A stretch of DNA of 64,000 bases from an uncultured Acidobacteriota bacterium (GTDB lineage Bacteria > Acidobacteriota > Thermoanaerobaculia > Gp7-AA8): NCBI GenBank assembly GCA_963822445.1, contig CAWGHO010000002.1:2176001-2240000 (forward strand), given 5' to 3'. The notes beneath the pieces are model-generated. The model was given only the letters and a program-made list of their open reading frames with translations, was not told the DNA's origin and did no database searches. Both the position numbers and the translations under genes were made by a program. Shown one piece after another: positions 27,283 through 50,393 of this stretch (its first letter is position 1; each line of letters begins with the position of its first letter).

Positions 27283-27353
27283 TGGTTGTCGTGTCGCTGC
27301 GTCACAGCCAGAGACCAAGGGTGCAGGGTTACGCAACCGCCGGGACTCGCCGC

Positions 27354-28289
27354 CTAACTGTTGCGTCTCAGGACGTTGTTCCGATCCAGGCGACTGATGG
27401 GTGGATTGTAAGAGAGCGCGGTATGCGCTCGGTGGTAGTTGTAGAAGTGAAGGTACGGTGCGAGCCAACGGCGCCGTTCCTCGGAGCTGTGGTACGAGAA
27501 CCGATAGGCCCATTCGCGCAGCAGCGTCTGGATGAACCGCTCCGCTTTACCGTTCGTCCGTGGTGTGTACGGCCGGATGCGGACGTGAGTGAGGTTCAGG
27601 CGGCTGCAGGTATCCCGGAAGTCGCGTGAGATGAAGGCCGATCCGTTGTCGGTCATCACCCGCTCGACGATGACATTCCGCTGAGCGAACCACGCCACCG
27701 CCCGAGTCAAAAACGAGCTGGCAGTCTCGCTACGCTCATCTGCCAGGACGTCGACGTAGGAGAGTCGGGTGAAGTCATCCGTCGCGACGTACACGAACTC
27801 GAAGCCCTGCTTCTTTGAGCCAAACGATCGACGCCTGGTGATGCGGTGTCCCACTCGATTGAACCGTCCCAGGCGCTTGATGTCGATGTGCACCAGTTCC
27901 CCCGGACGCTCCTTCTCGTACCGAATTGGCACTGTTGCCGGCTCAAGCTGACGCAACCGAGCCAGCCCTGCTGACCGGCAGATCCGCGCTGCTGTCGACG
28001 CACTCACGCCCACTGCCTGCGCGATCTGTCGCACAGTCCGCCATTCGCGGCGAAGACTCAGAACACGCTGTCGTTTTATGTCGCTCGTGGCCCGGCCCCT
28101 GTGCGGTCTGGAGCTCCGATCGTTAAGCGGCTCGACCCTCAGACCACGACGGATCCACTCCCGCCCTCGCCGGTCACTCATACCGGCGGCCTCCGACGCC
28201 TCGCGCACCGACCATCCTTGTTCGCAGACTCGTTTGACCAGCAGTGCTCGACTCAACGGGCAGCTTCGCGCATTCTTGTGCACGTCCAT
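27354..28289 (-). CDS. IS481-family DDE transposase
   Basis: HKNAR, GELVHIDIK, TDNG and PRTNGKAERF motifs. Confidence 0.95.
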   Translation of the reverse strand: MDVHKNARSCPLSRALLVKRVCEQGWSVREASEAAGMSDRRGREWIRRGLRVEPLNDRSSRPHRGRATSDIKRQRVLSLRREWRTVRQIAQAVGVSASTAARICRSAGLARLRQLEPATVPIRYEKERPGELVHIDIKRLGRFNRVGHRITRRRSFGSKKQGFEFVYVATDDFTRLSYVDVLADERSETASSFLTRAVAWFAQRNVIVERVMTDNGSAFISRDFRDTCSRLNLTHVRIRPYTPRTNGKAERFIQTLLREWAYRFSYHSSEERRRWLAPYLHFYNYHRAHTALSYNPPISRLDRNNVLRRNS

Positions 28290-28392
28290 CTGGGTTCCTT
28301 CCTGTCAACCTGTTCGTTTGAGAGCTTTCAGATTGACGAAAGTCGCCCGGATGGACAACCCGCTTCAAGGAACAACGTCCTGACACATCACA
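27359..28392 (-). mobile_element. IS481-family element copy 1, inserted in attC R''
   Basis: 1034 bp; TGT...ACA inverted repeats; CCTAAC on both sides. Confidence 0.95.
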
Positions 28393-28587
28393 CCTAACTA
28401 CTGCCCGAAGCTGTCACGGCCCGGCTTCGGTCCGGCGGCCGAGCCGCCTACTTCAGCGCCAGCTTCACGGCGTCACGCCGGTTGCAGATCGGCAGGCGTT
28501 GCATCAACTTCTCGCCGGCAACCGCCGTGCCGCTGGGGCTTCGGCACGTGGGCCCTGGCCGTGCAGCTTAGGCGATGGACGTTAGGC
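28393..28587 (+). repeat. attC site 26 (IS481 at R'')
   Basis: CCTAAC...GTTAGGC. Confidence 0.9.
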
Positions 28588-28713
28588 CGACCCAAAGACC
28601 CAGACGGGCGCGCGTAACTCACCGTCCGACAGTCGCGAGCAACCTCGATCAAGTGTCTTGAGGGTAGGGGTTTAACCATCTCCAGACACTCCTAGGCGTA
28701 CTACGAGGGGCCA

Positions 28714-29454
28714 ATGCAAACAGCCATCACGGTAGCGCTCATATCTGCCGCCGTCGCTTTATCCTCGGCGGCGTTCGCGTTTTGGGGCCAGGTGAGGTTG
28801 AAGAGACTTTCGTCCGACATCGACGGTCTTCAGGAGCGCGAACGCGAGCGGCGCGACGCCGCGAAGGTGGCCCGCAAGTACCATGAGCCGCTTGCTCGGT
28901 CCGCCTACGATTTCCAAAGCCGCCTGTACAATCTGCTCGGCAAAGATTTTGCCGGTCGTTACCTTGACCGAGGTAACGAGCGCGAGCGCGACTATGCGGT
29001 CTACAACACGGTGTTCTTGATCGCGCAATACTTCGCGTGGACGGAGATCATTCGCATTGCTATTCAGTACGTTGATCTGGGCAGTGACGATCAGACTAGA
29101 CAGTTCGCGCGTCTTCAAGACAAGATCTTCGCGCTTTTCACGACGGACCGATTTCCCTCAGCGTTTCGCGTCTTTGCCGGCGAGCAGCGCGCCCTCGGAG
29201 AGTGGATGATTCGACAGACCGATTTAGGCCCCGAATGTGTCGGTTACGGCACGTTTGTCGAGCGGATGCGGTCAAACGAGGGCACCGACCCGATAGCGAG
29301 GTATCTTGCCGACGACGTGAAACAGTTCGCAAGTGATACGGCGGGTCGGCGGCTCGCGGAAATTCAGAACGCCCTGATCGATCTGCTGGATTTCTTAGAT
29401 CCTGCTTGCGTGCGCTTCGACAAAATGAATAGAACGAAGATCCCGGCGGCCTAA
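28714..29454 (+). CDS. Hypothetical protein with N-terminal TM anchor
   Basis: 246 aa; stop codon lies in GCCTAAC. Confidence 0.8.
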   Translation: MQTAITVALISAAVALSSAAFAFWGQVRLKRLSSDIDGLQERERERRDAAKVARKYHEPLARSAYDFQSRLYNLLGKDFAGRYLDRGNERERDYAVYNTVFLIAQYFAWTEIIRIAIQYVDLGSDDQTRQFARLQDKIFALFTTDRFPSAFRVFAGEQRALGEWMIRQTDLGPECVGYGTFVERMRSNEGTDPIARYLADDVKQFASDTAGRRLAEIQNALIDLLDFLDPACVRFDKMNRTKIPAA

Positions 29455-29645
29455 CGTCTGTCGCCTGAGCTGCGGCGGGTTCACCGACGCAAACGGCAGA
29501 GCGGCGCGGCCGTTGCCGCGACCAACGCCTTTTCAGGCAGGAGCGACCTGCAACGGACGTGACGCCGCGCAGGTTGGAGTCGGCCGAGTCGGCTCGGCCG
29601 ACGGGCCACGAAGACAGCCCGCCGACAGCTCCTGGCAGTAGTTAG
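29449..29645 (-). repeat. attC site 27, inverted (IS1595 element at its R'')
   Basis: Reverse complement of the CTAACTACTGCCAGG...GGCGACAGACGTTAGGC consensus. Confidence 0.9.
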
Positions 29646-29706
29646 GGCATCAATATACTTGCCTCACCTGTCGAGAGACGGTAGGATGCTGTAACAGTCC
29701 TAATCC

Positions 29707-30633
29707 ATGGCCGATAAGCCTTTGGTTCACCCGCTCTCGCGGTCGCAGTTCTATGCCGAATGCCTCCGGCACGCGACCACCGGCGCATGGGGTTGGATAG
29801 GCAACGTGTCCACCGTGATGGCACTCGCTCTACCGCTAGTGAAGTCGTTGTGGCCGAAGGCTTACGCGCAAGCCGCTGCCCTGCTGGCGTCTATGCGTCT
29901 GGGCGAGGAGTTGCTCTGGATCTTTCCGATGTCGGCAGGTGCGCTGATTTTGGTGGCTCGGTTCCTTACGGCTGGCTTTCTCATTTATTCCAACAAGCCA
30001 GCGGGCGTGGCATCGGTGGCCCCGCCAAAACCGAAGGTGAAATTGCAGGCGCATCGCTATCAAGTGAAGGTAGAAACAAGTCACTTGTCTCCGATTCTGC
30101 AGCGCGTTGTTAAGGGCACTTTTTATACCACCGCAATTCGTGGTCATAATTTCGGAGAAGCGGACGCGGTCAACGTGCGAGCCGTTATCGCGATTCCGCA
30201 TACTGACTACACCATGGACGTAGCTATAGACCAAGTAGGGCGAACGGAGCCGGTCAAGGCTGAAGTTGACCTTCTCGTCGCTGGCAAGCCATGGAAGGGT
30301 TCCACGACGGACAACATAACTGCTTTTTTGCGGGAGGCGCGGACGCAGTCTTTCAAGAATGCCGAAGCGCACCAGAATCAAACCGCAAAAGGCGGCGGAG
30401 AAGAAAGCGCTGAAGCGCTACAGATCAGCCGAGATGCAGTCTACGCTGTAGCTGGGCAGGAAGAGATCGGCTCGAATCTGGTCGTTGAGTTCGAGGCTAC
30501 GTATGCTGACTTTGAGGGTGCACCATTCAGTAAGCGGCACGTGTTGACGTTTACGCCGAAAGGGAAGCTGACGATTACTCTCGATCAGAAATCGGCGGCA
30601 GCGCCTGTTCCCGGCCCGGAGCGCGCTTCCTAG
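29707..30633 (+). CDS. Passenger hypothetical membrane protein
   Basis: 308 aa; two N-terminal TM segments then a beta-rich domain. Confidence 0.7.
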   Translation: MADKPLVHPLSRSQFYAECLRHATTGAWGWIGNVSTVMALALPLVKSLWPKAYAQAAALLASMRLGEELLWIFPMSAGALILVARFLTAGFLIYSNKPAGVASVAPPKPKVKLQAHRYQVKVETSHLSPILQRVVKGTFYTTAIRGHNFGEADAVNVRAVIAIPHTDYTMDVAIDQVGRTEPVKAEVDLLVAGKPWKGSTTDNITAFLREARTQSFKNAEAHQNQTAKGGGEESAEALQISRDAVYAVAGQEEIGSNLVVEFEATYADFEGAPFSKRHVLTFTPKGKLTITLDQKSAAAPVPGPERAS

Positions 30634-30745
30634 GCTCATGCTTAGCCACGTCCCTCTTATCGACTCGGAACAGCGCGCGCGCGAGCCGCTGGAATCGCTC
30701 CCAGCCTTCGCGGGCTTCGGCCTCGGGAATGGGTTTCTCGTCCAT
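30575..30745 (-). CDS. Small 56-aa passenger ORF (not in ORF track)
   Basis: MDEKPIPEAEAREGWERFQRLARALFRVDK...; TATCAT 6 nt before the ATG. Confidence 0.4.
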   Translation of the reverse strand: MDEKPIPEAEAREGWERFQRLARALFRVDKRDVAKHEPRKRAPGREQALPPISDRE

Positions 30746-30763
30746 GCCGCGATGATACGCCCG

Positions 30764-31048
30764 TCAGTACTCAACCACGAACGTCTCACGCTGCACCGGC
30801 CCGCGACGGGGCTGCATGCGGCTGCGAATGACGGAGCGGTTCTCGTCCACGAAGTCCCGCGCGGCCTGCTCCAGCCGCTCCCGTGCTTCCTCCAGCGTCC
30901 GCCCGTGTACCGAGACTCCGATCAGCTCCTCGACAGTGCCCGTAAAGCCGTCCGCGTCTTCGACGTAGATCGCCGTGAGCATGGCGCGGTATTCGGTGAA
31001 GTCGTGAAGGACCGGCCCGCGCTTGGAACTCTTCCGCTTCGTCGCCAT
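30764..31048 (-). CDS. HicB-like antitoxin-family protein
   Basis: GFTGTVEELIGVSVHGRTLEEARERL; GGAGG RBS. Confidence 0.7.
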   Translation of the reverse strand: MATKRKSSKRGPVLHDFTEYRAMLTAIYVEDADGFTGTVEELIGVSVHGRTLEEARERLEQAARDFVDENRSVIRSRMQPRRGPVQRETFVVEY

Positions 31049-31121
31049 GAGATTCCTCCCGAAGCGACAGGATACTGTCTGTTGCGGGGCAACACAATCG
31101 TGTCCCATCACACCGTACGTG

Positions 31122-31340
31122 ATGGCGTCCGATGCCGCACAGCTTCGCTCCCTCGGGAAGAGAGTCCGCGAGTTACGGAAAGCGCGCGGGTTGAGTCAGG
31201 AGCGGCTCGCGGAACTCGCCGAGGTTCACGAGAACCACATCCGACGAATCGAGGCAGGAACGGCGAATCCGTCCTACCTGGTTCTGCTCAGGATCGCCCG
31301 CGCGCTGGATGTGCGCGCGGGCAAGCTGATCGAAGAGTAA
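31122..31340 (+). CDS. XRE-family HTH regulator
   Basis: LGKRVRELRKARGLSQERLAE...IEAGTANPS. Confidence 0.9.
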   Translation: MASDAAQLRSLGKRVRELRKARGLSQERLAELAEVHENHIRRIEAGTANPSYLVLLRIARALDVRAGKLIEE

Positions 31341-31375
31341 GGCGTGAAGCTATCGCTTACCGCGACGCTGGCGCT

Positions 31376-32368
31376 TCACGCCTGCTCTGCTCGGATCAAA
31401 TCCTTGTAGGTCAGGCGCGCGGTCGGGAACATCGCCATAGCGCGAAGGAAGCGCTGGCTGTCGTCCGTCTTGCGGTTGTTGAACCGGAAGCACTGCTCGT
31501 CCACGTAGGCGGCGAGGTGGTACGGCTCAACGGAAACGTAGGTGCCGGACAACCCGCGCTGAAGCAGCGACCAGAAGTTCTCTACGCCGTTCGTGTGGAC
31601 GTTGCCGTTCACGTATTCGATTTCGTGATTCACGAACTCGTGAAAGAACCGCTCCGCGAAGCGCGGATAGGCATAGCCTTCGTCCGTCATGAGCGTAGAG
31701 CCTTCCTCTACGTGCTCTTCAAGGAACTCGGCACGCGGTTCAACCTGACCGTTAGCGAGGATCTGCGCGCGGACTTCACCGTTACGCTCAAGTACGGCCT
31801 GCACAAGAGTCTTACCGATTGCGCCGCGCATGTTGCGCGCGCCCTTCGCGTCGCTCTCGGCTCGCACCCTCGCCTTCCGCGAGTCGTGCATGTTCTTGAA
31901 CAGGCCGCCGATAAAACACTCGTCAGCTTCCACTATGCCGGACAGCTTTTTGTTAAAGGTCTTCGCTTTGATAGCGGCGCGAATCCTGTGCAGCATAAAC
32001 CACGCGGTTTTCTGGGTTACGCCAAGGCCGCGATGCAGCTCATAGGAGCTAATACCGTTCTTGCAGTTGGTAAGCAGCCAGAAGGCCACAAGCCACTTAG
32101 ACAGGCTAATCGGCGAGTCCTCGAAGATCGTGCCGACGCGAACGGAAAACTGCTTCTTGCAGCTCTTGCACTTCCACAGCTTGCGCGTAGAGATGAAGCT
32201 GTGCTCACTGCCATTGCAGAACGGGCAGAACACGCCGTCAGGCCAGCGGAGTTCAACAGCGAAAGCGTGAGCTACATCACTGTCCGCGAAATAGATCACC
32301 GTCTCTTGAAGAGTGCGCGGGACGTACGGTTCACCGTCTTTGCGCTCAATGACTTTCTTCTTAGGCAT
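31376..32368 (-). CDS. IS1595-family transposase
   Basis: CPFC/CKSC zinc finger; TQKTAWFM, EADE, TDE, NGVENFW and YVDE motifs. Confidence 0.95.
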   Translation of the reverse strand: MPKKKVIERKDGEPYVPRTLQETVIYFADSDVAHAFAVELRWPDGVFCPFCNGSEHSFISTRKLWKCKSCKKQFSVRVGTIFEDSPISLSKWLVAFWLLTNCKNGISSYELHRGLGVTQKTAWFMLHRIRAAIKAKTFNKKLSGIVEADECFIGGLFKNMHDSRKARVRAESDAKGARNMRGAIGKTLVQAVLERNGEVRAQILANGQVEPRAEFLEEHVEEGSTLMTDEGYAYPRFAERFFHEFVNHEIEYVNGNVHTNGVENFWSLLQRGLSGTYVSVEPYHLAAYVDEQCFRFNNRKTDDSQRFLRAMAMFPTARLTYKDLIRAEQA

Positions 32369-32432
32369 ACGGACAATATAGGTCCGTTTTTGGGTGAGTC
32401 AAGTATATTCTTGCCGTAGTTAGGCCGCGGCT

Positions 32433-33083
32433 TTACCTACGCCTGCTGGGAACGCCCGCTCGCGCCATTACACGGAGAATACGGCCGCGTGTGTAACGTT
32501 GGAGAAGCACCGGATATACATGCACGAGAACATTAGCGACACCGAGATAGGTCGCCCAGCCATGCCATTCAATCTGCCAAGCAAACAGCGATGTGACCGT
32601 GCCCACGAGCAACAGCACTACGTGGCTTTTCTCACTGAGCTTGGTGCGTTCTACGAAAGCGGCCGCGTAAGCTCGGTTAGCTATGATTCGGAAGCTAGGT
32701 TGGCGATAGCGACGCCAACGATTTGCCAGGTCGCCGTCAGGGACGAAGTGCCGGAATGCCCTGACACCAATTAGTTCGTAAAGACGCCCGCTCCGCTCGA
32801 ACCCCCGTATCCGAAAATACGCTGGAGGAAGCCACCACGGCGTCAGACAGGTAGCGAACACCAGTATGAACACGACGAGCGATGGGGCCACGTCTCCCGC
32901 AGGATAGTCGAACGGCCGGAGCGGCCCCCAGACATAGAGCCAAAACATCAGAACTGGGGCCAGCCAGCCGCCGGCCATCAGCGCGAACGGTATGACATTC
33001 ACCCCGTCCGTTTCATTCGAAAAGGTGGGTTGCGCAGTAGTGAGCTTCCACGCGACGTGATCCCTCTCGTCGGCTTCGTTCAA
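32433..33083 (-). CDS. CrtO-like acyltransferase-family membrane protein (inverted cassette; start uncertain)
   Basis: YELIGVRAF, TKLSEKSH and YPVLLQRYTRGRI motifs. Confidence 0.65.
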   Translation of the reverse strand: MNEADERDHVAWKLTTAQPTFSNETDGVNVIPFALMAGGWLAPVLMFWLYVWGPLRPFDYPAGDVAPSLVVFILVFATCLTPWWLPPAYFRIRGFERSGRLYELIGVRAFRHFVPDGDLANRWRRYRQPSFRIIANRAYAAAFVERTKLSEKSHVVLLLVGTVTSLFAWQIEWHGWATYLGVANVLVHVYPVLLQRYTRGRILRVMARAGVPSRRR

Positions 33084-33177
33084 GCTCTGCCGTCCATCTC
33101 GATATCTCGCTTCACGGAATGGAAGTGTAGCGGAGACGGCGCGGGGAGGTTGCTTTAGCTGCCCGCTGTTTTCGTCG

Positions 33178-33376
33178 GCCTAACTACTGCCAGGAGCTGT
33201 CGGCGGGCTGGCTCCGTGGCCCGTCGGCCGAGCCGACTCGGCCGACTCCAAGTTGCGCGGCGTCACGGCCGTGGCAGATCGCTCCTGCCTACAAAGGCGT
33301 TGGTCGCGGCAACGGCCGCGCCGCTCTGCTGGTTGCGCCGGTGAACCCGCCGCAGCTCAGGCGATAGACGTTAGGC
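33178..33376 (+). repeat. attC site 28
   Basis: GCCTAAC...GTTAGGC. Confidence 0.9.
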
Positions 33377-33623
33377 CGACGAATGACGATTGGCGTGACG
33401 GCGCGCTTTCCATGAGGCTCCGCGTACCGGGATGCTCGCCGCAAGCCAGATAAACTACCGCGTCAGTTGGAGCGTGTTAGGCCGGCAGACAACACGCGCA
33501 ATGGAATGCCGACTTCGCCCATGCGTCGTCGTACGTAAGCTTGGTCTGAGCACCCTGAACGGTGCAGGGTGCCAGACACGAGTGGTATAACAGGGACACG
33601 ACCGACGACAAAGGAGTTCTGAC

Positions 33624-33824
33624 ATGAGCACACGAGCAATGATGGTTTTTCGCGGTTGGCTAATGCTGTCACCACAAGAGCGAGCTGAGGTGCTCCAACG
33701 TATTCATGCCTATATGAATGCCTCCCAGCAGCAGCAGGCACAAATCGAACAGAGCCTCGGATTGCCGCCATCGCATTCACGCAATCCGGATGCATGTCCA
33801 TGTTGCGGGAGGCTCGGTATTTAG
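33624..33824 (+). CDS. Small protein with C-terminal CPCCG motif
   Basis: AAGGAG RBS; homologous to 34031-34237. Confidence 0.75.
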   Translation: MSTRAMMVFRGWLMLSPQERAEVLQRIHAYMNASQQQQAQIEQSLGLPPSHSRNPDACPCCGRLGI

Positions 33825-34030
33825 TCGATATGCGCAGATCGCGTCACCCGTCCTCTGCGCGTTTGGACAAAGTGTTGAGCCGGCACGGCGCTTGCCATCC
33901 GCATCGTCAACACTAGCTCGATGCGGTTCTGCCGCGCCGACTCATGCTGGGATGTTCTCGAAGTGTAATGTTTGAGTGGCAGGGTTATGACTGTGACCCC
34001 CGCATCCACCCTTGAATGAGAGGAGGATTT

Positions 34031-34237
34031 GTGAATGGACGCACCGCACTCGTGACAATTGGTTATGTACGTCTGTCACGCGATGAGCAGCAGACCGTCT
34101 TAGAGGTTGCGGCTGAGTTTGCTGCGGTTGCGCCACACCAGCGCGAGCCCTTTATGGCATCGCTTCAAGTTACGCTGTCAAACGACACCTCAGGAACCGA
34201 TCGGTATTGCCCGTGCTGCGGCCATTTGCGTGGGTAA
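34031..34237 (+). CDS. Small protein with C-terminal CPCCG motif (paralogue)
   Basis: AGGAGG RBS then GTG 34031. Confidence 0.75.
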   Translation: MNGRTALVTIGYVRLSRDEQQTVLEVAAEFAAVAPHQREPFMASLQVTLSNDTSGTDRYCPCCGHLRG

Positions 34238-34417
34238 GTTTCGTTATGTTCCCTATACCGTGGCGAGCGCCGGCCTTCTAAGTGACTGCTCGTATTTGTT
34301 GAAACAAGGATCGCATTTTCACCCAGCACCGGACAAAAAGCGTGGGAAATGGACAAAAATAGTCAAAATTAACCGTCAGTTAGTTGCTTCGTTGTAGCTC
34401 GGCGGAGCCGGGTGGCG

Positions 34418-34614
34418 GCCTAACTCCTGCCAGCAGCGGATGGCGGGCCGTTCGCCGCTCTCGGGCCTGAAGGCCCTTTTCTCTGCCGAGACGCACGGCG
34501 TCACACCGCTTGCAGATCGCGCCCGCCGGCTTGACTCTGGTTGCGGCAAGCGGCGCGCCGCTGCCGCCGCATGCACGCGGGGCCTCGCCACCGCTGAGGC
34601 GATCAACGTTAGGC
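34418..34614 (+). repeat. attC site 29
   Basis: GCCTAAC...GTTAGGC. Confidence 0.9.
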
Positions 34615-35000
34615 CGACGTTTCCACAGTTTCCGTGACGGCACGCTTTCCATGAGACTTCGCGTACCTGCTCGCTCAGGGCAAACGGTCATCGCCGTCGC
34701 TGGAGCGCGTAAGTCCGACCGCGCGCAACCTAAACTCGGCGACTTTCTACTCGTTGGCCATCAGCGGAAAATCCTTATCACGCCCGACATGGGCTCAGAA
34801 GTTAGCCAAAGCGCTCGCAGCATTCCAGAAGAAGCTATTCTGAATTTTCCGCCCATTCGCGTTGTCGCTTGGCGAACGCTATACTTCTCTCCAAGGACAG
34901 TACCGGTGAGCGACGATCGCGAACACGGCACGCGTATTCCCTCAAGCAGGCGATTGCTCGCACTCCTCGTCGGCACACGACCTATGGGGGTATAGACGAA

Positions 35001-37971: not shown

Positions 37972-38022
37972 GGACGAACCGGTGGACTCCCGTCACCAAT
38001 GAGACGACGCTATACTCGATCC

Positions 38023-38766
38023 ATGAGACTCCTGCTCGGTCTTCTCGCCACCGTGATGCTTTCGGCATGTACTTCGACACCCGTGAACGGCTCAGCGCAG
38101 AGCGTCGCCACGCGCCGTGTGGCGATTGAGGACGCGATCTTCACGTACGTTCCGAGGTCCACCAATGATGCCTCCACTCTCCCGACCGGTGTAATCTACG
38201 CCGGTCTGGATGTGGACGGGTCGCAGCTATTCCTGTGTCGCGCAGCATGGGCTAATGGCGTTCATCCCGGAAAAACGTGGGACCGACCGCACGCGACGTG
38301 TAACATCGGGTATGGCGGGGGTGAAGTGGCGGTTCCGACGTTTGAAGTGCCAATCGTCCGCCGGAAATTCGCCGCCAACGAAGTATTCTGGGACTGCGTC
38401 GGGGAAGGAACCCCGGGCAGCCCTCATGTGTTTAATTGGTCTCGGTATGTCGTCGGGGGTCACGAAAACAACGGCACGCTGGGCTATTGCTTAGCCAGTT
38501 ACAGTGACAATGATGGCGGACTATGCCCGGAGGACGCGAAGTCTCGACTTGTGCCTGGCAAGTTGCTGCCTGGACCGGTCGGCTCTGACGCACCGCGTTG
38601 CTACTTTGGACTTTTTGGTCAGGAGCAGCAAAGAACAGTGTTCACGTATATGCTTTATAGCTGTTGTTTCGCTAGCCAAAACGCAGCTACATGCCAAGGA
38701 GACCGGCCCAATCGACCGTGTTCGGCTGAAGATGTGTCCGGTTATGCGCTAGCGTCAAAACCGTAG
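38023..38766 (+). CDS. DM9-repeat (DUF3421) lipoprotein
   Basis: Lipobox LSAC; two G.D..G..L..CRA...PGK...C.I.YGG.E-type repeats. Confidence 0.75.
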   Translation: MRLLLGLLATVMLSACTSTPVNGSAQSVATRRVAIEDAIFTYVPRSTNDASTLPTGVIYAGLDVDGSQLFLCRAAWANGVHPGKTWDRPHATCNIGYGGGEVAVPTFEVPIVRRKFAANEVFWDCVGEGTPGSPHVFNWSRYVVGGHENNGTLGYCLASYSDNDGGLCPEDAKSRLVPGKLLPGPVGSDAPRCYFGLFGQEQQRTVFTYMLYSCCFASQNAATCQGDRPNRPCSAEDVSGYALASKP

Positions 38767-38791
38767 GTGATCAAGCCCGCGAGCATCCGCC

Positions 38792-38990
38792 GCCTAACTA
38801 CTGCCAGGAGCTGTCGGCGGGCTTGCTCCGTGGCCCGTCGGCCGAGCCGACTCGGCCGACTCAAACCTGCGCGGCGTCACGTCCGTTGCAGTTCGCTCCT
38901 GCCGTCAAAGGCGTTGGTCGCGGCAACGGCCGCGCCGCTCTGCTGGTTGCGCCGTTGAACCCGCCGCAGCTCAGGCGATAGACGTTGGGC
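38792..38990 (+). repeat. attC site 32
   Basis: GCCTAAC...GTTGGGC. Confidence 0.9.
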
Positions 38991-39275
38991 GGACCCGGCG
39001 CGAAACGTAGGCCGGACTTCTATTTACGCGTTGGCAGTCGCGCCGACAGAAGCGGCGTAGCCGCGCGCCAAGGCGTCCGCCGCCATTTTCGTCGTGGTAC
39101 CCGCCCGCCCACCGGCTGCTCGCACCAGCAGCGCGCGCGGGGCACGATCTGCGTAGGCCAGTGACCACAAAACTCGAGACGCACTGACGTAGCGGGCCTT
39201 CGGCCACGCGCGCTTCGCGTCGTGCACCATTTGCCGCGCGCGCTGCTCCCAGCGCGCAAAGCTGTGCGTGTGGCC
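38985..39275. repeat. ORF-less cassette family A, copy 7 (variant centre)
   Basis: Homologous to copy 4. Confidence 0.85.
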
Positions 39276-39464
39276 GCCCAACAACTCACAGCAGCTGTCG
39301 CGGCCCGGCTTCGGCCCGGCGCTGAAGCGCCTGGGCCGAACAGTACCGTCGCGGCGGCACGCCGGCCGCAATTCGGTTCATTCGTTAATCGCCGGCAGCC
39401 GGCGCGCCGCGCTGCCGTAGCCACGCAGGCCCTGGCCGCGCAGCTGAGTGAGATGACGTTAGCC
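39276..39464 (+). repeat. attC site 33 (family-A subtype)
   Basis: GCCCAAC...GTTAGCC. Confidence 0.9.
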
Positions 39465-39569
39465 GGACCGAGATAGGGTGGGGGAACTCAGGAGAACTCC
39501 GGGCGGGAGGGAAAAGTGCGCACGCGGCCCTCCTACTCATGGGCAGATGAGCTGCCAAGGAGAGAATAT

Positions 39570-40406
39570 ATGCGCCAGGTGTATGCCGCGATCTTCATCA
39601 TTCTCATGACCGGTAGCGTGGTAGCTGCCGAGAAATCCTCGACCGAAAAACCGTCGACAATTTTCGTGCGCGAGTGCAAGGCACTCACGAAAACCTTGCC
39701 GGATCTTGCGCTGCCGTGCACGGATTTCGTGAAGGGCAAGTCGGACGAAACTATACGCGCCTATTTGGCAATGATTCAGAGCGCGCAACAGCAGTTGGTA
39801 GCGCAAGGCCCGGAACTCGCTCAGTCCATCATGAAGGGCTGTATGGCGAATACGGTGGCTGAGAAGCCCGACTTAGGCGGTCTGCTCTTTTGCCTGCGAA
39901 TTCGTCGGAACGGAACCGATCTTGAGAAGCTCTCCAAGGGAGAGGGTTCGTGGGGCGAGTATGCAAAACTGGCCAACGACGCATCGAAACCAGTGCCGTC
40001 GTATCCTGTAGAGGACACAGCGCAATCGGAGAAGCAGCGCGCCGCGGTTCGTCAGGCTGTCGTATATGCGTGTGTAAAAGAGGGAGATGGGTATGTCCGC
40101 GCACTCTGCGGGGCTGTAGCCGCTCATGAGGCATTTGCATCGCGGCCATTCGGAGACAATGGGGAATTGGCCAAAGCTTTCGACACCGTCTTGAAAGTTT
40201 ATGCGATCACCGAGGCGCCGAAGCAAGCGATTCAGGCGGAGGTCAAAGAGATACTTCAGCGCGCAGGCTTCAACGATCAGGTCGCCCAGGCGGTGGCGAA
40301 TCCACAGAAGGGAGTCGAGGAAGGCGCCAAGCATGTCGCGGGTGAGGCACAAAAGGCCGGCGAGGCGGTTGCGAAGGCAATCCAATGCATTTTCGGGTGT
40401 GGATAG
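39570..40406 (+). CDS. Secreted helical Cys-containing hypothetical protein
   Basis: AAGGAG RBS; signal peptide; paired cysteines. Confidence 0.8.
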   Translation: MRQVYAAIFIILMTGSVVAAEKSSTEKPSTIFVRECKALTKTLPDLALPCTDFVKGKSDETIRAYLAMIQSAQQQLVAQGPELAQSIMKGCMANTVAEKPDLGGLLFCLRIRRNGTDLEKLSKGEGSWGEYAKLANDASKPVPSYPVEDTAQSEKQRAAVRQAVVYACVKEGDGYVRALCGAVAAHEAFASRPFGDNGELAKAFDTVLKVYAITEAPKQAIQAEVKEILQRAGFNDQVAQAVANPQKGVEEGAKHVAGEAQKAGEAVAKAIQCIFGCG

Positions 40407-40426
40407 GTGTGCTGAAGCACGGGGCC

Positions 40427-40623
40427 GGCTAACTACTGCCAGAAGCTGGCACGGCCCGGCTTCGGTCCGGCGGCCGAGCCGCCTGCATCATCGCCAGCGG
40501 CACGGCGTCACGGCGGTTGCAAATCGGCAGGCGTTGCATGCAACTTCTCGCCGGCAACCGCCGCGCCGCACGGGCTTCGGCACGTGGGCCCTGGCCGTGC
40601 AGCTTAGGCGATAGACGTTAGCC
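40427..40623 (+). repeat. attC site 34
   Basis: GGCTAAC...GTTAGCC. Confidence 0.9.
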
Positions 40624-40664
40624 GGACGACGGGGAGACAGATAGGAACGTTATACTGATGACGC

Positions 40665-41693
40665 TTGAAGCTTTTCTATAGTTATTCATCGTCCGATGAG
40701 TCGTTCAGAAGCGAGTTCGAAGACCACCTTTCGTTACTCAAACGCGACGGCCTTCTGGAAACGTGGTCATTTCGAAATATCAGTGCTGGTTCAGATTGGG
40801 AGCGCGAGATCGACGACCGCCTTGCGATTGCCGACATCGCGCTCCTTTTGGTCAGTGCCAGTTTCATCGCGTCGAGATACTGCTGGGAGGTTGAACTGCG
40901 TCACGCGATCAAACGAGTGGACCGTGGCGAGATGCTCCTCATACCGGTTGTCATTCGCCCATGTGATTGGCAAACGGCACCGTTCGCCCGCTTCCAGGCT
41001 TTACCGGACGGCGCGAAGCCTGTCACATCGTGGCGTCCGCGTGACCGAGCGTGGGCGAATGTGGCAGCCGGGCTTCGAAACTTGATCGAAGCGAAGAGAA
41101 ATCCAACTGCTGCAACGACGGCTATTCACAATTCAGAGATGGGCAAACGTCAGATTGCGCAGGCGTTTCAACAGGCCCGTGAAGCCACTGATCACGCAGA
41201 TAGGCGTCATAAGCGCCTCGTGCGACAGGTAAACGAGCGTCGCATGAACCTGTTGACTGAATTGCCGCATCTACATAACGCAGTGGCGCAGCTCGTTGCG
41301 CATATCGCGCCAGAATTCGCGCCGACGCTGTCGATCGAGGGCGAACGGCTGACGATTGTGAGAGATCGAATACGTATGGTGGTTGAGCCTTCCGACAGCG
41401 GCCATAACTTAACGGTGACATTGGCGCGGTATGATAGCTCCAACGGTATTACGTTTCTAGGAATTGAAGTGATGGTGCATACAGTGATGTTACTTCGGAA
41501 CGTGACCAGAAAGTGGCGCGTGGAGACCGAGCACGTTTGGCGCCGGGAACTGACCGATAATGTTGAGACTTGGATATGGAGTCACGCGACGAGAGAACTG
41601 AAGGCGAACACCGAAGAGCTAGCGAGTCTGCTGCTTAGACGGTTTGCAGATCGCTGCGCAGGTCTCACGAACCCGGATAATGCCGCCGGCTAA
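40665..41693 (+). CDS. TIR-domain protein
   Basis: KLFYSYS, LLLVSASFIASRYCWEVEL and IPVVIRPCDW motifs. Confidence 0.9.
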   Translation: MKLFYSYSSSDESFRSEFEDHLSLLKRDGLLETWSFRNISAGSDWEREIDDRLAIADIALLLVSASFIASRYCWEVELRHAIKRVDRGEMLLIPVVIRPCDWQTAPFARFQALPDGAKPVTSWRPRDRAWANVAAGLRNLIEAKRNPTAATTAIHNSEMGKRQIAQAFQQAREATDHADRRHKRLVRQVNERRMNLLTELPHLHNAVAQLVAHIAPEFAPTLSIEGERLTIVRDRIRMVVEPSDSGHNLTVTLARYDSSNGITFLGIEVMVHTVMLLRNVTRKWRVETEHVWRRELTDNVETWIWSHATRELKANTEELASLLLRRFADRCAGLTNPDNAAG

Positions 41694-41884
41694 CTACTGC
41701 CAGAAGCTGGCACGGCCCGGCTTCGGTCCGCCGGCCGAGCCGGCTGCATCATCGCCAGCGTGACGGCGTCACGGCGGTTGCGGTTCGGCAGGCGTTGCAT
41801 GCAACTTCTGGCCGGCAACCGCCGTGCCGCTCGGACTTCGGCACGTGGGCCCTGGCCGTGCAGCTTAGGCGATAGACGTTAGGC
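41688..41884 (+). repeat. attC site 35
   Basis: GGCTAAC...GTTAGGC. Confidence 0.9.
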
Positions 41885-42090
41885 CGTCCGTGGCCACAAC
41901 GCTTCGCGTTCTTGTGAGCCCTTCGTCGCATTCACAGTTCTCATACCCTCCAGCCCCCCCTCGCAGTGTCGAAGGTGACGGGCGGCTGCCACCGATAAAA
42001 TGTTCCCCATCGAGTGGATCCGATCCCATGTCGATTTCATCTGCCACGGACATTTTTACGACCCTCTCCGTTGCATGCCGCTGCGGCACG

Positions 42091-42406
42091 TTCCCCCCAC
42101 GCAGCTGCCGACACCGCGATATCGCGGGCCGCGACCAGCAAAACGCGCCTCCCGCATGCCCAAGGGTGCCGTCGGTCCCTTCAAACTCGCCCACCAACCG
42201 CGGTAGACCGACGGCACCCTTGGGCATCACACCCTCCCGGCGCACGCTCGTCGCGGCCCTGACTTCACCCGCCGCCCACCCTCGCGCGCCGAACTCGCGA
42301 ATGCGTGCCGTGACACTGCGGTTGCATATCGCTCCCCGCTGACGGGGTTGTTAGTCGCGGCCAACCGCCGCGCCACGGGCGGTGACCGTGAATTCGGCGC
42401 GCTCAT
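42091..42406. ncRNA. Candidate structured element family B, copy 4
   Basis: Same architecture; leader from R' onward is homologous to that of copy 2. Confidence 0.5.
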
Positions 42407-42475
42407 GCCCGACGACTGCTGCTACCACCCGGACGCAGGGCTTTCGTTGAGCTCCGCAGGACTAGAATGTTCGCT

Positions 42476-43283
42476 ATGGCTTCGGAAGCGTCAAAAGAGC
42501 CGAACGAGGGTCGGTGGCACGAAGGTCGGATCACGAATGGCGTCCGCATCGTGCATCTTCACAGCTGGTCGTATTTCGATGATTACATGACTGAAGAGAT
42601 GATCACGCGAAGGCAGTTCATCTGGCGTGGACAAGCGTCAGCCGATTGGCCGCTCGAATCTACTATTGATCGCCTGTTGCGGCGCCGTAAGAGGCTCAAA
42701 AGTAAGCGGGCTCGCGAGGAGCATCTGCGTCGCTTCAAATACGCTAGCCGGGGCAGACGAGGGGCGAATCCGCCGCAACTCACAGAAGATGAATGGTGGG
42801 CGCTCGGTCAACATTTCGGGCTAGCGACGCCTCTTTTGGATTGGAGCGCTTCGCCATACGTTGCAGCGTATTTTGCCTTTGTTTCCGAAGAAAACGATAA
42901 TGCAGAGCAACGCGCCGTCTACGGTATATCGCGAACTTCCGTTCAGAACGCATGCGACGAAGCTCGAGAAGACTGGAGTGGCGAAGGCTCGCCATCGTTA
43001 CTTGAAATCATCGAGCCACTTTCGGACGAAAATCCGCGTCTGGTTAGCCAAGGCGGCCTTTACTCGTGTGCCGGACGGCATGGACGTGGAATCGTGGGTC
43101 AGAAGCCATTTCAAAGGTGACTCTAAGTTTCCCCGGTTACTCAAGCTCACGATGCCGAACGACGACCGCGAGTTAGCGCTACGAAACCTGAATCGCATGA
43201 ATATCAATCACCTCTCTCTATTTCCGGACTTATACGGCGCATCCAAATTCGTTAACCTCGATCTACTGATTGAGAAGTATTGA
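42476..43283 (+). pseudogene. FRG-domain protein, frameshifted near ~43060 (or sequence error)
   Basis: WRGQ, QHFGLATPLLDWS and NPRLVSQGG motifs; MNINHLSLFPDLYG in another frame. Confidence 0.85.
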
Positions 43284-43291
43284 GGTCGGCG

Positions 43292-43491
43292 GCCTAACTA
43301 CTGCCAGGAGCTGTCAGCGGGCCGTTTGCCGCGCCCGGCGCTGAAGCGCCTCGTTCAGCGCTGAATGGCCGGCGGCACGCCGGCCGACATGCTCTCGCGC
43401 CGCTGATCGCGGCGCGAATCACTGCAGCCGCCGCGCCGCGCACCCGCTCGCACGCGGGGCCTCGCCGCAGCTCAGGCGACAAACGTTAGCC
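43292..43491 (+). repeat. attC site 36
   Basis: GCCTAAC...GTTAGCC. Confidence 0.9.
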
Positions 43492-43715
43492 GGACGAAAC
43501 GAAACATGCTCTGAATGTCCGCGACGAAGGAACGATGAGGTAGCGGAGGCGCGAGCAGTGACAGTCGGAGCGATGCCGAAGGATGCAGCGACCGTGCATG
43601 GTCCAAGACCAGTGATGCCGAGAGGTGGTAGGGGTGACGGAGTAATCGTGAGGGCAACGTACTCGCTGTATCGGTCCGGACAAGGATCGTCTCCCGCCGT
43701 TTGAGACTGTTAGGG

Positions 43716-44150
43716 CTACTTCGGTCTGGACCTAAGGATGGTACCAAGCGCTTGCAGGTGTCCTGCGCCGCGTTCGATCTCCGCCAACCAATGTTCACGA
43801 TATGGTGCCAGAGTCTTATCGGAGTTGAGATGATGCCAATCTAAATTCTTAGCGTAGATACCCAACTGCTTCAGATCGCGCAGCATCGCGTAGCGAGCTT
43901 GACCTAAGCTGTCTCGCACCTTTGACGTGCAGTCGTCAAAATCGAAAACCAGATGGTTGTACTTCGTTCCCTCGACTCGGGGAATCTTACCATCACGCAA
44001 CTTCGTTGCGATCGCCTCGAGCGCACCGCCCAACGCTGTGAAGTACTCAGCCGCGCGCTCATCTGCGTCAATTTTTCGTTCCCGAATAAGCTCGATTAGC
44101 TTTGCGGTTGTTTCCGCGAGGTCGGTGAGTAGCTTCCATTCAACAATCAT
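43716..44150 (-). CDS. Hypothetical helical protein
   Basis: Main ORF of the cassette; likely ATG 44150. Confidence 0.6.
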   Translation of the reverse strand: MIVEWKLLTDLAETTAKLIELIRERKIDADERAAEYFTALGGALEAIATKLRDGKIPRVEGTKYNHLVFDFDDCTSKVRDSLGQARYAMLRDLKQLGIYAKNLDWHHLNSDKTLAPYREHWLAEIERGAGHLQALGTILRSRPK

Positions 44151-44429
44151 TGCCCACCTTATCGTTAGATGCAGTTGACCACTTTGTTGCTGTAATCCAA
44201 GGACGAGCGTTTGATAGCAAGGTGACCGTCGCCGAGCGTAGATCCGCAATGCTCCCCTTCGGGTGCAGTAAGCCGAAGCGCGTCGCTCTACGTACAACGT
44301 CGTGCGTCGAGAGGTACTGGGCCCGCCAGCTTCCAGAAATCAACTCCGAGTGGTCTCACAAGTAGGAGTGTCGCCTCCGTCGAATTCCCTACCCACAAGC
44401 AAAGCTGGAGATCTTGATCGCCGCGCCGG

Positions 44430-45365
44430 CTAACTGTTGCGTCTCAGGACGTTGTTCCGATCCAGGCGACTGATGGGTGGATTGTAAGAGAGCGCGGTAT
44501 GCGCTCGGTGGTAGTTGTAGAAGTGAAGGTACGGTGCGAGCCAACGGCGCCGTTCCTCGGAGCTGTGGTACGAGAACCGATAGGCCCATTCGCGCAGCAG
44601 CGTCTGGATGAACCGCTCCGCTTTACCGTTCGTCCGTGGTGTGTACGGCCGGATGCGGACGTGAGTGAGGTTCAGGCGGCTGCAGGTATCCCGGAAGTCG
44701 CGTGAGATGAAGGCCGATCCGTTGTCGGTCATCACCCGCTCGACGATGACATTCCGCTGAGCGAACCACGCCACCGCCCGAGTCAAAAACGAGCTGGCAG
44801 TCTCGCTACGCTCATCTGCCAGGACGTCGACGTAGGAGAGTCGGGTGAAGTCATCCGTCGCGACGTACACGAACTCGAAGCCCTGCTTCTTTGAGCCAAA
44901 CGATCGACGCCTGGTGATGCGGTGTCCCACTCGATTGAACCGTCCCAGGCGCTTGATGTCGATGTGCACCAGTTCCCCCGGACGCTCCTTCTCGTACCGA
45001 ATTGGCACTGTTGCCGGCTCAAGCTGACGCAACCGAGCCAGCCCTGCTGACCGGCAGATCCGCGCTGCTGTCGACGCACTCACGCCCACTGCCTGCGCGA
45101 TCTGTCGCACAGTCCGCCATTCGCGGCGAAGACTCAGAACACGCTGTCGTTTTATGTCGCTCGTGGCCCGGCCCCTGTGCGGTCTGGAGCTCCGATCGTT
45201 AAGCGGCTCGACCCTCAGACCACGACGGATCCACTCCCGCCCTCGCCGGTCACTCATACCGGCGGCCTCCGACGCCTCGCGCACCGACCATCCTTGTTCG
45301 CAGACTCGCTTGACCAGCAGTGCTCGACTCAACGGGCAGCTTCGCGCATTCTTGTGCACGTCCAT
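44430..45365 (-). CDS. IS481-family DDE transposase
   Basis: Same protein as the other two copies. Confidence 0.95.
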   Translation of the reverse strand: MDVHKNARSCPLSRALLVKRVCEQGWSVREASEAAGMSDRRGREWIRRGLRVEPLNDRSSRPHRGRATSDIKRQRVLSLRREWRTVRQIAQAVGVSASTAARICRSAGLARLRQLEPATVPIRYEKERPGELVHIDIKRLGRFNRVGHRITRRRSFGSKKQGFEFVYVATDDFTRLSYVDVLADERSETASSFLTRAVAWFAQRNVIVERVMTDNGSAFISRDFRDTCSRLNLTHVRIRPYTPRTNGKAERFIQTLLREWAYRFSYHSSEERRRWLAPYLHFYNYHRAHTALSYNPPISRLDRNNVLRRNS

Positions 45366-45468
45366 CTGGGTTCCTTCCTGTCAACCTGTTCGTTTGAGAG
45401 CTTTCAGATTGACGAAAGTCGCCCGGATGGACAACCCGCTTCAAGGAACAACGTCCTGACACATCACA
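44435..45468 (-). mobile_element. IS481-family element copy 3, inserted in attC R''
   Basis: 1034 bp; flanks GCTAAC and CCTAAC (not identical). Confidence 0.95.
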
Positions 45469-45664
45469 CCTAACTACTGCCAGGAGCTGTCGCGGCCCGG
45501 CTTCGGTCCGCCGGCCGAGCCGGCTGCTTTTTCGCCAGCGTGACGGCGTCACGGCGGTTGCAGTTCGGCAGGCGTTGCATGCAACTTCTCGCCGGCAACC
45601 GCCGCGCCGCTTCGGCTTCGGCACGTGGGCCCTGGCCGCGCAGCTCAGGCGATAGACGTTGGGC
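45469..45664 (+). repeat. attC site 37 (IS481 at R'')
   Basis: CCTAAC...GTTGGGC. Confidence 0.9.
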
Positions 45665-50391: not shown

Positions 50392-50393
50392 AC

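What the first reader, a model, noticed from the sequence alone, without database searches (positions are those of the whole stretch)
27352..45474. IS481-family element that targets attC core sites and borrows its stop codon from them
Seen: three near-identical 1034-bp copies, all at GTTAG(G/C). Two are in R'' (minus strand) and one is in R' (plus strand), always in the same orientation relative to GTTAG. The transposase ORF runs through the right IR and ends on the target's TAG. Established: IS481 duplicates a 6-bp NCTAGN-type target, and known attC-targeting elements include IS1111-group IS and group IIC introns. Inference: an attC-specialised DDE element that leaves a core site on each side and can hitch-hike on cassettes.
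Basis: partly seen in the sequence, partly recalled or inferred. Interest (0 to 1): 0.75.

Follow-up and report, generated by a model that had tools for sequence, protein, structure and literature searches.

The report
IS481 element inserted in attC cores
A small jumping gene of the IS481 family sits in the conserved core of integron recombination sites because its lineage prefers the six-base word GTTAG(G/C) that those cores carry; taking its stop codon from the target is a known habit of this family.

Summary
A 1,034-bp insertion sequence occurs three times in the window and a fourth time elsewhere in the genome. Each copy sits in a GTTAG(G/C) core of a 193-nt attC site belonging to a ~106-kb chromosomal integron or an integrase-less attC cluster. 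Each has a 6-bp target duplication. The transposase frame ends on the TAG of that duplication.

- The borrowed stop codon is already described for IS481-family elements with NCTAGN targets. It holds for 56 of 73 relatives examined here.
- The new point is that this element belongs to a well-supported derived clade, seen only in one Acidobacteriota family, whose flanking word has changed from NCTAGN to GTTAGN. That word is the attC core.
- Clade members sit in cores of two unrelated attC types, at both R' and R''.
- Other members sit at GTTAGN outside any attC, for example behind an rpoC-like gene.
- Genomes carrying the element have an integron integrase no more often than the family average.

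The best reading is sequence-level targeting of a hexamer that attC cores happen to supply, or that the lineage adapted to. It is not recognition of attC as such. Hitch-hiking on cassettes is structurally plausible but not shown.

The parts
27359..28392 (-). IS copy A (1,034 bp, TGT...ACA), inserted in the R'' core of the attC at 28394-28585
27354..28289 (-). transposase ORF of copy A (311 aa); the stop TAG lies in the flanking hexamer
27353..27358 (-). IRR-side target duplication of copy A (GTTAGG on the - strand); it holds the stop codon
28393..28398 (-). IRL-side target duplication of copy A (GTTAGG on the - strand, CCTAAC on +); it serves as the R'' core of the attC that follows
28394..28585 (+). 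attC (192 nt) whose R'' core was hit by copy A
   Evidence: C2:2204394-2204585, HMM 1-193, E 5.6e-51
35646..35838 (+). attC (193 nt) whose R' core was hit by copy B
   Evidence: C2:2211646-2211838, E 5.2e-54; the fold has dG -99.6
35834..35839 (+). IRL-side target duplication of copy B (GTTAGG); it is the R' core of the attC
35840..36873 (+). IS copy B (1,034 bp)
35943..36878 (+). transposase ORF of copy B (311 aa, P0001). It carries LZ_Tnp_IS481, HTH and rve domains, with presumed DDE residues at D136, D214 and E250.
36874..36879 (+). IRR-side target duplication of copy B (GTTAGG); TAG at 36876-36878 is the stop codon
44435..45468 (-). IS copy C (1,034 bp; one base differs from A and B at position 160)
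44430..45365 (-). transposase ORF of copy C (311 aa)
44429..44434 (-). IRR-side hexamer of copy C (GTTAGC on the - strand). It matches the R' of the preceding attC (GTTAGCCGG), as the rule for cassette boundaries requires.
45469..45474 (-). IRL-side hexamer of copy C (GTTAGG on the - strand). It differs from the other side at the sixth base.
45470..45661 (+). attC (192 nt) whose R'' core was hit by copy C
   Evidence: C2:2221470-2221661, E 1.5e-50
464..50591 (+). the distal part of the integron cassette array inside the window (42 near-full attCs). The whole array is C2:2120566-2226591, and intI lies at C2:2118113-2119048, outside the window.

Best explanation
This is a young, intact IS481-family insertion sequence with a DDE transposase, TGT...ACA ends and a 6-bp target duplication. 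It belongs to a derived clade in which the family's usual NCTAGN target has become GTTAGN. GTTAG(G/C) is the core hexamer of most attC sites in this host. An attC is an imperfect palindrome, so it offers the word twice: once at R' on the top strand and once at R'' on the bottom strand. The transposase recognises the double-stranded hexamer, not the folded attC. It therefore lands in either core, with its orientation fixed by the asymmetric word.

The duplication rebuilds a core hexamer on both sides. The IRL-side copy stays joined to the attC body. The IRR-side copy supplies the TAG that ends the transposase frame, as in other IS481 members. Copies accumulate in the array for two reasons: it holds about a quarter of all GTTAGS words in the genome, and insertions there break no gene.

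Shown here: the anatomy, the family membership, the clade-wide target word, and insertions both inside and outside attCs. Inferred: recognition as double-stranded DNA, the copy-and-paste mechanism, and tolerance as the cause of accumulation.
For: Family membership: NF033577 at 263 bits (cut-off 224); LZ_Tnp_IS481 plus rve domains; one open 311-aa frame.

Copies and duplications: four copies with at most one differing base. Three of the four have perfect 6-bp duplications. Full-length relatives L012, L013, L093, L094 and the C3 copy also have perfect 6-bp duplications.

Stop codon: 56 of 73 relatives whose frame reached a stop end ...ACA|NCTAG with the TAG in the flank. Three end at NTTAG, two at NCTAA, two at N(A/G)TAG and ten elsewhere; seven further loci ran off their contig. 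A second, 72%-identical element in this genome has a CCTAGG duplication and the same geometry.

Clade: in a quick maximum-likelihood tree of 72 transposases, 8 rows flanked by GTTAG form one clade with SH-aLRT 100. It is nested among NCTAGN-flanked Acidobacteriota copies.

Target word: of 22 distinct right junctions whose IRR ends ...CAACA, 18 are GTTAG, 2 GTTAA, 1 CCTAA and 1 ACTAG. All 8 junctions whose IRR ends ...CGACA are NCTAG or NCTAA.

attC use across types: GTTAGN junctions abut the 193-nt attC type in 2 relatives. They abut an unrelated ~100-nt attC type, seen in arrays of 2-3 in one orientation, in 4 relatives. One more junction was assigned by its fold.

Use outside attC: L013/L122 has a perfect GTTAGC duplication in the spacer behind an rpoC-like gene. 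About 11 of the 21 GTTAGN left junctions in 12 published relatives show no attC.

No dependence on integrons: IntI was found in 62 of 124 genomes of the family. It was found in 11 of the 22 published genomes that carry the IRL pattern.

Motif supply: 64 of 87 R' and 55 of 87 R'' cores in the array read GTTAGS. Of 570 GTTAGS words in the genome, 149 lie in attCs.
Against: All 4 of 4 copies in this genome are in attC cores, although only 26% of GTTAGS words are. This gives P about 0.004, or about 0.011 when only crudely defined non-coding words are counted. Some preference beyond the hexamer is therefore not excluded.

Position 1 of the word has become fixed as G in this clade, whereas it is free in NCTAGN relatives. 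That makes the word match the attC core more closely than drift alone would predict.

Classing junctions in relatives as attC or not attC rests on two home-made HMMs and fold heuristics with 7-15% false positives. Three junctions in G046 share a 27-nt repeat of unknown nature and two in G020 are ambiguous.

The relatives are draft assemblies. The non-attC insertions belong to elements 74-77% identical to this one, not to this element itself.
Confidence: 0.65

Rival explanations
1. True attC specialisation. The transposase recognises more than the hexamer, either the attC stem next to the core or the folded site. Copies found outside attCs in relatives are then rare off-target events or remnants of decayed attCs.
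For: 4 of 4 copies in this genome are in attC cores, against 26-32% expected. At least 7 of 21 GTTAGN left junctions in relatives lie in attCs of two unrelated sequence types. Position 1 of the target is fixed to G, which completes the core word. The first base of the element (T) keeps the seventh core position a pyrimidine, by inspection against the recalled GTTRRRY consensus.
Against: There is a clean 6-bp GTTAGC duplication behind an rpoC-like gene in a genome that has an integron integrase (G135). Three independent G149 insertions lie at gene ends in heptamer-repeat spacers, in a genome with no IntI found at 80% completeness. Carriage of the element shows no link with IntI: 11 of 22 carriers against 62 of 124 genomes overall. 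The left flanks share no conserved sequence beyond the hexamer across attC types.
Confidence: 0.2
2. The copies were spread by the integron itself or by homologous recombination, as cassette duplication or shuffling of an IS-bearing cassette, and not by transposition into each site.
For: After insertion the element lies inside a cassette that still has a complete attC, so IntI could in principle move it (inference). Copy C has a mismatched duplication (GTTAGG/GTTAGC), which shows that some exchange or mutation followed its insertion.
Against: Each copy is flanked by different cassette DNA on its outer side. Three of the four copies have perfect 6-bp duplications where intact attCs carry a single core. 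The insertions are in both R' and R'', which cassette movement would not produce.
Confidence: 0.05
3. There is no target preference at all, and the element survives only where it does no harm.
For: Cassette arrays tolerate insertions. 23% of complete integrons carry an IS (passage read in PMC4889954).
Against: The flanking word is GTTAG in 18 of 22 clade junctions and NCTAG in relatives. All four copies hit the same 6-bp word within 193-nt sites.
Confidence: 0.02

Closest known systems
IS481-family elements with NCTAGN targets (IS481/IS1002 of Bordetella, ISLxc2/ISLxx4 of Leifsonia, ISRe46/TnRErm46 of Rhodococcus)
   Same: Single DDE transposase with an IS481-type N-terminus, TGT...ACA inverted repeats, a size of about 1 kb and a 6-bp duplication of a word containing TAG. 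The transposase stop codon is supplied by that duplication (passages in PMC2516522 and PMC6794481).
   Different: The word is GTTAG(N) instead of NCTAG(N): position 2 is T and position 1 is fixed as G. This coincides with the integron attC core. I found no paper describing such a target for IS481 (searches; only listings and the named passages were seen).
IS1111-attC group (IS110/IS1111 family elements that target attC sites)
   Same: Elements repeatedly found in one orientation at a fixed place in attC sites of cassette arrays. [quoted passage not shown]
   Different: Those encode DEDD transposases and, as I recall, make no target duplication. One paper abstract (PMC11187229, listing) reports RNA-guided target choice. 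The element here has an rve DDE transposase and a 6-bp duplication, and it also uses sites outside attCs.
Group IIC-attC introns
   Same: Mobile elements that insert into attC sites in a fixed orientation (abstract of PMC3001079, listing).
   Different: Those are retroelements with a ribozyme and a reverse transcriptase. Nothing of the kind is present here.

Membership tests
IS481 family | Transposase matches the family's curated model above its cut-off | tested here: met
   NF033577 at 263.3 bits against a cut-off of 224, covering residues 14-301. The IS3 model scores only 80.8 against 160.
IS481 family | rve (DDE) catalytic core and an IS481-type leucine-zipper/HTH N-terminus | tested here: met
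   PF00665, PF13683 and PF13011 all score over their cut-offs. The motifs HID, TDNG and GKAE lie at residues 134-136, 213-216 and 247-250. Reading these as the catalytic D, D and E is inference from recalled IS3/IS481 motifs.
IS481 family | One long ORF without programmed frameshift; element about 1 kb; ends TGT...ACA | tested here: met
   The ORF is 311 aa and open. The element is 1,034 bp, and 20 of 24 inverted-repeat positions match, starting with TGT. The family's size range and the TGT rule are recalled; the ISLxc2 inverted repeats printed in PMC2516522 also start TGTG.
IS481 family | 6-bp duplication of NCTAGN (the Bordetella/Leifsonia/Rhodococcus type) | tested here: not met
   The duplication is 6 bp, but the word is GTTAGG or GTTAGC. 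The feature is typical of many members and does not define the family, so membership stands and the target is a variant.
IS481 family | Transposase stop codon lies in the target duplication | tested here: met
   The TAG lies at positions 3-5 of the IRR-side hexamer in all four copies. The same geometry is seen in 56 of 73 relatives.
Integron attC site (identity of the target repeats) | Integron integrase next to an array of same-orientation sites separated by ORFs | tested here: met
   TIGR02249 scores 456 bits (cut-off 265) at C2:2118113-2119048. There are 91 hits, 87 of them near-full, from C2:2120566 to 2226591, and all but one are on the + strand.
Integron attC site (identity of the target repeats) | Inverse core and core (recalled consensus RYYYAAC...GTTRRRY) closing an imperfect palindrome | tested here: met
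   R' reads GTTAGG in 36, GTTAGC in 28, GTTGGG in 18 and GTTCGG in 3 of 87 sites; R'' shows the complements. Folds give dG -94 to -106 over 188-193 nt.
Integron attC site (identity of the target repeats) | Cassette-boundary rule: the bases after G|TT of one R' are complementary to the R'' of the next attC | tested here: met
   By inspection. For example, a site ending ...GTTGGGCGGAC is followed by one starting CCGCCCAAC, and GTTAGCCGG before copy C matches CCGGCTAAC on its outer side.
Integron attC site (identity of the target repeats) | Usual length (about 57-141 nt, recalled) | tested here: not met
   The median is 193 nt and the range 182-197. These attCs are unusually long but meet the other criteria.
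IS1111-attC group | DEDD (IS110/IS1111) transposase and no target duplication (recalled) | tested here: not met
   The transposase is rve/IS481 and a 6-bp duplication is present.
Group IIC-attC intron | Intron RNA structure and a reverse transcriptase ORF | tested here: not met
   The only ORF is a DDE transposase. No RNA-family search was run.

The most novel reading that the evidence does not exclude
A lineage of IS481 elements, confined so far to one family of Acidobacteriota in which half the genomes carry integrons, changed its target word from NCTAGN to GTTAGN as an adaptation to integron attC cores. The 6-bp duplication rebuilds a working core on both sides, and the element's first base T keeps the seventh core position a pyrimidine. 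The attC therefore stays recombinogenic, and the element becomes cargo of a cassette that IntI can excise and move. This would be the first DDE transposon with integron-core specificity, and a third independent route to attC targeting after the IS1111-attC elements and the group IIC-attC introns.
Probability: 0.3. Interest if true: 0.7.

Novelty: new variant of a known kind. Interest (0 to 1): 0.45.

Why it matters
Large chromosomal integrons are gene reservoirs, and their stability depends on intact attC sites. A DDE element whose target word equals the attC core, and whose duplication restores that core, could seed cassette arrays with homologous repeats that drive inversions, deletions and integrase-less attC clusters. 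It might do this without disabling recombination, and it might itself travel with cassettes.

The finding also gives a natural example of a one- to two-base shift in the target word of an IS481 transposase. That makes the unknown basis of NCTAGN recognition open to comparison between sister clades.

The stop-codon point is not new.

Tried and rejected
1. Telling attC from non-attC flanks by local alignment of the flank against its own reverse complement. Known attCs scored 23-24 against a control 95th percentile of 22, so the method discriminates too poorly.

2. A duplex-energy score requiring AAC:GTT pairing. At -20 kcal it gave 85% sensitivity and 15% false positives, and it missed several sites that the HMMs later confirmed.

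3. Counting arm pairs in minimum-free-energy folds. At 20 or more pairs it gave 84% sensitivity and 7% false positives. I used it only as a secondary hint.

4. A coding mask made from long ORFs with high GC3. It covers only 69% of the genome, so it overstates the number of non-coding GTTAGS words. The P value of 0.011 is therefore not a firm bound in either direction.

5. Public sequencing runs. Only soil-metagenome contig sets with at most 0.21 of the words were found. When laid on the window they gave short pieces of attC-like and IS sequence. No contig bridged an empty site or a circle junction, so nothing can be concluded.

6. The careful maximum-likelihood tree did not finish within the time limit. 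The quick tree was used instead.

8. I considered IntI-mediated exchange as the cause of copy C's mismatched sixth base. I could not derive it from the known crossover point (G|TT of R'). A point change, or gene conversion from copy A or B, remains the simplest reading.

9. Loci from the unpublished genomes G002, G057 and G122 were left out of all counts.


Full report
**1. The observation**

A repeat search of the window finds two 1,050-nt, 100% complementary inverted-repeat pairs and one direct pair. Together they define three copies of one element. Read in the direction of the transposase, each copy starts TGTGATG and ends GCAACA. Each is 1,034 bp long and sits between two GTTAG(G/C) hexamers.
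- Copy A: window 27359-28392 (-).
- Copy B: window 35840-36873 (+).
- Copy C: window 44435-45468 (-).

A and B are identical, and C differs at position 160. The window is G000:C2:2176001-2240000. A whole-genome search gives a fourth full copy at C1:1227004-1228037 (-), which carries the same one-base difference as C. It also gives a 71-73% identical relative at C3:1601233-1602272.

The terminal inverted repeats match at 20 of 24 positions. Each copy holds one open frame of 311 aa. Its last sense codons lie in the right inverted repeat, and its stop is the TAG at positions 3-5 of the flanking hexamer.

**2. What the element is**

The protein matches the curated IS481 transposase model above its cut-off (NF033577, 263 bits against 224). 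It matches the IS3 model far below its cut-off. Pfam finds the IS481 leucine-zipper N-terminus, an HTH and the rve integrase core. Motifs that I read as the DDE residues lie at D136, D214 and E250; that assignment is by recalled motif.

Size, a single frame, TGT...ACA ends and a 6-bp duplication all fit the family.

**3. What the target is**

An integron integrase lies at C2:2118113-2119048, at 456 bits against a cut-off of 265. Two rounds of nhmmer, seeded with one repeat from the window, gave 117 hits in the genome.
- 91 of these, 87 near-full, form one array from C2:2120566 to 2226591. All but one are on the + strand, and 42 near-full sites lie in the window.
- The sites have a median length of 193 nt and fold as long imperfect hairpins.
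- They begin with (G/C)CTAAC, CCCAAC or CCGAAC and end with the complementary GTTAGG (36), GTTAGC (28), GTTGGG (18) or GTTCGG (3).
- The bases after GTT of one site are complementary to the start of the next site (by inspection). This is the signature of cassettes cut at G|TT.

These are attC sites, though unusually long ones. Another 26 hits, 14 near-full, lie in small integrase-less clusters on all three contigs.

Copies A and C interrupt the 5' (R'') core of the attCs at window 28394-28585 and 45470-45661. Copy B interrupts the 3' (R') core of the attC at 35646-35838. The fourth copy abuts an attC fragment (C1:1228039-1228120, HMM positions 1-79), and three more attCs lie within 3.7 kb of it.

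In every case the left end of the element faces the attC body. This follows simply from the asymmetric word GTTAG, which is present on the top strand at R' and on the bottom strand at R''.

**4. The duplication**

Intact attCs carry one core at each end, and interrupted ones carry two, so the hexamer is truly duplicated.
- Three of the four copies have identical hexamers on both sides: GTTAGG for A and B, GTTAGC for the C1 copy.
- Copy C has GTTAGG on the attC side and GTTAGC on the outer side.
- The outer hexamer agrees with the preceding attC (GTTAGCCGG against CCGGCTAAC). The attC-side copy is therefore the one that changed.
- A point change, or a short gene conversion from copy A or B, would explain this. 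I could not derive it from IntI crossover at G|TT.
- Full-length relatives also show 6-bp duplications. One relative (L153) again differs at the sixth base.

**5. The stop codon is a family habit, not an attC adaptation**

I fetched 80 loci from public genomes with the transposase. Seven ran off their contig, which left 73 whose frame reached a stop. Their frames end as follows:
- 56 end ...ACA|NCTAG, with the TAG in the flank.
- 3 end at NTTAG.
- 2 end at NCTAA.
- 2 end at N(A/G)TAG.
- 10 end elsewhere.

The second element in this genome has a CCTAGG duplication and the same geometry.

The literature says the same. [quoted passage not shown] **6. A derived clade with a changed target word**

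A quick maximum-likelihood tree of 72 transposases was built; the careful search did not finish. It places 8 rows flanked by GTTAG in one clade with SH-aLRT 100. These rows come from this genome, G013, G015, G018, G051, G135 and G144. The clade is nested among NCTAGN-flanked copies from Acidobacteriota, including the C3 copy of this genome.

The closest public relatives are 74% identical in protein and come from Thermoanaerobaculia metagenome-assembled genomes. Both have perfect GTTAGC duplications.

Searches of 100 relatives and of the 124 genomes of the same family gave many more junctions, mostly at contig ends.
- Of 22 distinct right junctions whose inverted repeat ends ...CAACA, 18 are followed by GTTAG, 2 by GTTAA, 1 by CCTAA and 1 by ACTAG. 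The ACTAG case is an outgroup.
- All 8 junctions ending ...CGACA are followed by NCTAG or NCTAA.
- Position 1 is free in the NCTAGN relatives and is G in this clade.
- The occasional TAA variants also give an in-frame stop.

**7. Is it attC that is recognised?**

Evidence for attC use across types:
- Among 21 GTTAGN left junctions in 12 published relatives, 6 abut an attC by HMM. Two are of the 193-nt type (L093, L134). Four are of an unrelated ~100-nt type that starts (C/T)(C/T)AAC and ends GTTAG. In L012 and L094 this type stands in arrays of three sites in one orientation, 350-600 bp apart.
- A seventh junction (L100) was assigned by its fold.
- IntI over the cut-off was found in G013, G015 and G020.
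- The clade therefore uses cores of different attC families that share only the core word.

Evidence against attC recognition as such:
- L013/L122 has a perfect GTTAGC duplication in the spacer between two convergent genes. One of them is an rpoC-like gene followed by a terminator-like hairpin. This genome (G135) does have IntI.
- Three independent insertions in G149 lie just after gene ends, in short heptamer-repeat spacers. No IntI was found there, at 80% completeness.
- L097, L125, L146, L153 and L115 show no attC.
- Three G046 junctions share a 27-nt repeat of unknown nature. L099 and L130 are ambiguous.
- At genome level, IntI was found in 62 of 124 family genomes. It was found in 11 of the 22 published genomes that carry the left-end pattern, so there is no association.

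In this genome, 149 of 570 GTTAGS words lie in attCs. With 4 of 4 insertions in attC, P is about 0.004. Against attC plus crudely defined non-coding words it is about 0.011. A better gene call would raise that value further, because insertions in genes are unlikely to survive.

**8. Mechanism**

[quoted passage not shown] It recognises the double-stranded word GTTAGN and makes a 6-bp staggered cut. It needs a stop triplet at positions 3-5 of the target to end its own frame.

attC cores supply that word twice per site. 64 of 87 R' cores and 55 of 87 R'' cores in this array read GTTAGS, and insertions there are harmless.

After insertion the attC body keeps a complete hexamer core, followed by the element's T, which is a pyrimidine at the seventh position. 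The element becomes part of the neighbouring cassette. Such a cassette may still be mobile, which would make the element a hitch-hiker. That is a reasonable inference but was not tested.

**9. Comparison with known systems, and novelty**

The element is a member of the IS481 family with a variant target word. It works like its NCTAGN relatives.

It resembles the IS1111-attC elements and the group IIC-attC introns only in where it is found. Its enzyme and its duplication are different.

Searches for IS481 together with attC, integron or gene cassette returned 10 and 5 papers. Judged from their titles and abstracts, none deals with such targeting. Supplementary files and ISfinder could not be consulted. 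I therefore rate it a new variant of a known kind.

The boldest reading still open is that the target shift is an adaptation to integron cores that allows cassette hitch-hiking. I give that about 0.3.

**10. Limits**

- Relatives are mostly draft metagenome-assembled genomes.
- The attC calls in them rest on two HMMs built here.
- Related genomes are not independent samples.
- Loci from the unpublished genomes G002, G057 and G122 were excluded from all counts.
- Public read sets gave nothing usable.

Noticed in passing
G000:C2:2118113-2226591 (window 464-50591 is its distal part): This is a very large chromosomal integron: about 106 kb with 87 near-full attC sites of unusual length (median 193 nt). 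intI is on the same strand as the cassettes and is transcribed toward the array. IntI is found in 62 of 124 genomes of this Acidobacteriota family.
   Followed up: partly
window 29451-29645: One attC of the array lies in the opposite orientation (C2:2205451-2205645, - strand). Next to it is an unusually long 3.5-kb stretch without an attC, with ORFs of 308 and 593 aa that have no Pfam match. A CrtO-like acyltransferase ORF lies on the - strand at 32433-33083.
   Followed up: partly
window 26035-27282: The cassette just upstream of IS copy A encodes a 415-aa protein with a TIR domain (PF13676, 98 bits). It may be a defence-type cassette.
   Followed up: no
window 1495-2640, 5356-6640 and other places (repeat families D1, D3, D5): Runs of near-identical small cassettes about 480 bp apart share a distinct attC subtype that begins CCCAACAACTCACAGCAG. 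This suggests tandem cassette duplication.
   Followed up: no
G000:C3:1601233-1602272: A second, 72%-identical IS481-family element lies here, with a 325-aa ORF and a perfect CCTAGG duplication. It is the natural sister for comparing target choice. A weak attC-like fragment lies about 600 bp away at C3:1600599-1600669.
   Followed up: partly
window 45469-45474 against 44429-44434; also L153 (G144:C8): The target duplications differ at the sixth base (GTTAGG/GTTAGC in the window; GTTAGA/GTTAGC in L153), whereas six other full copies have perfect 6-bp repeats. The cause is unexplained; it may be gene conversion between copies or a point change.
   Followed up: partly
L107 (G037:C184), about positions 783-832: A 28-nt right end is followed by GTTAGC and then the first 16 nt of a left end. 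This head-to-tail junction looks like a remnant of a tandem copy or a circle junction. The contig holds two further right-end fragments.
   Followed up: no
L146 (G110:C4); L170-L172 (G149): Several non-attC insertions of related elements lie at the edge of heptamer microsatellites that contain TAG-like words, such as repeats of GGGTAGC or GTTGGTT/GTTAGTT. Two junctions (L146, L115) have a second GTTAG one or two bases upstream of the duplicated one.
   Followed up: no
L012, L094, L126, L168 (relatives G015, G013, G045, G144): A second attC family of about 100 nt is shared across genera of this bacterial family. Only two weak matches to it occur in G000, at C3:16797-17478.
   Followed up: partly
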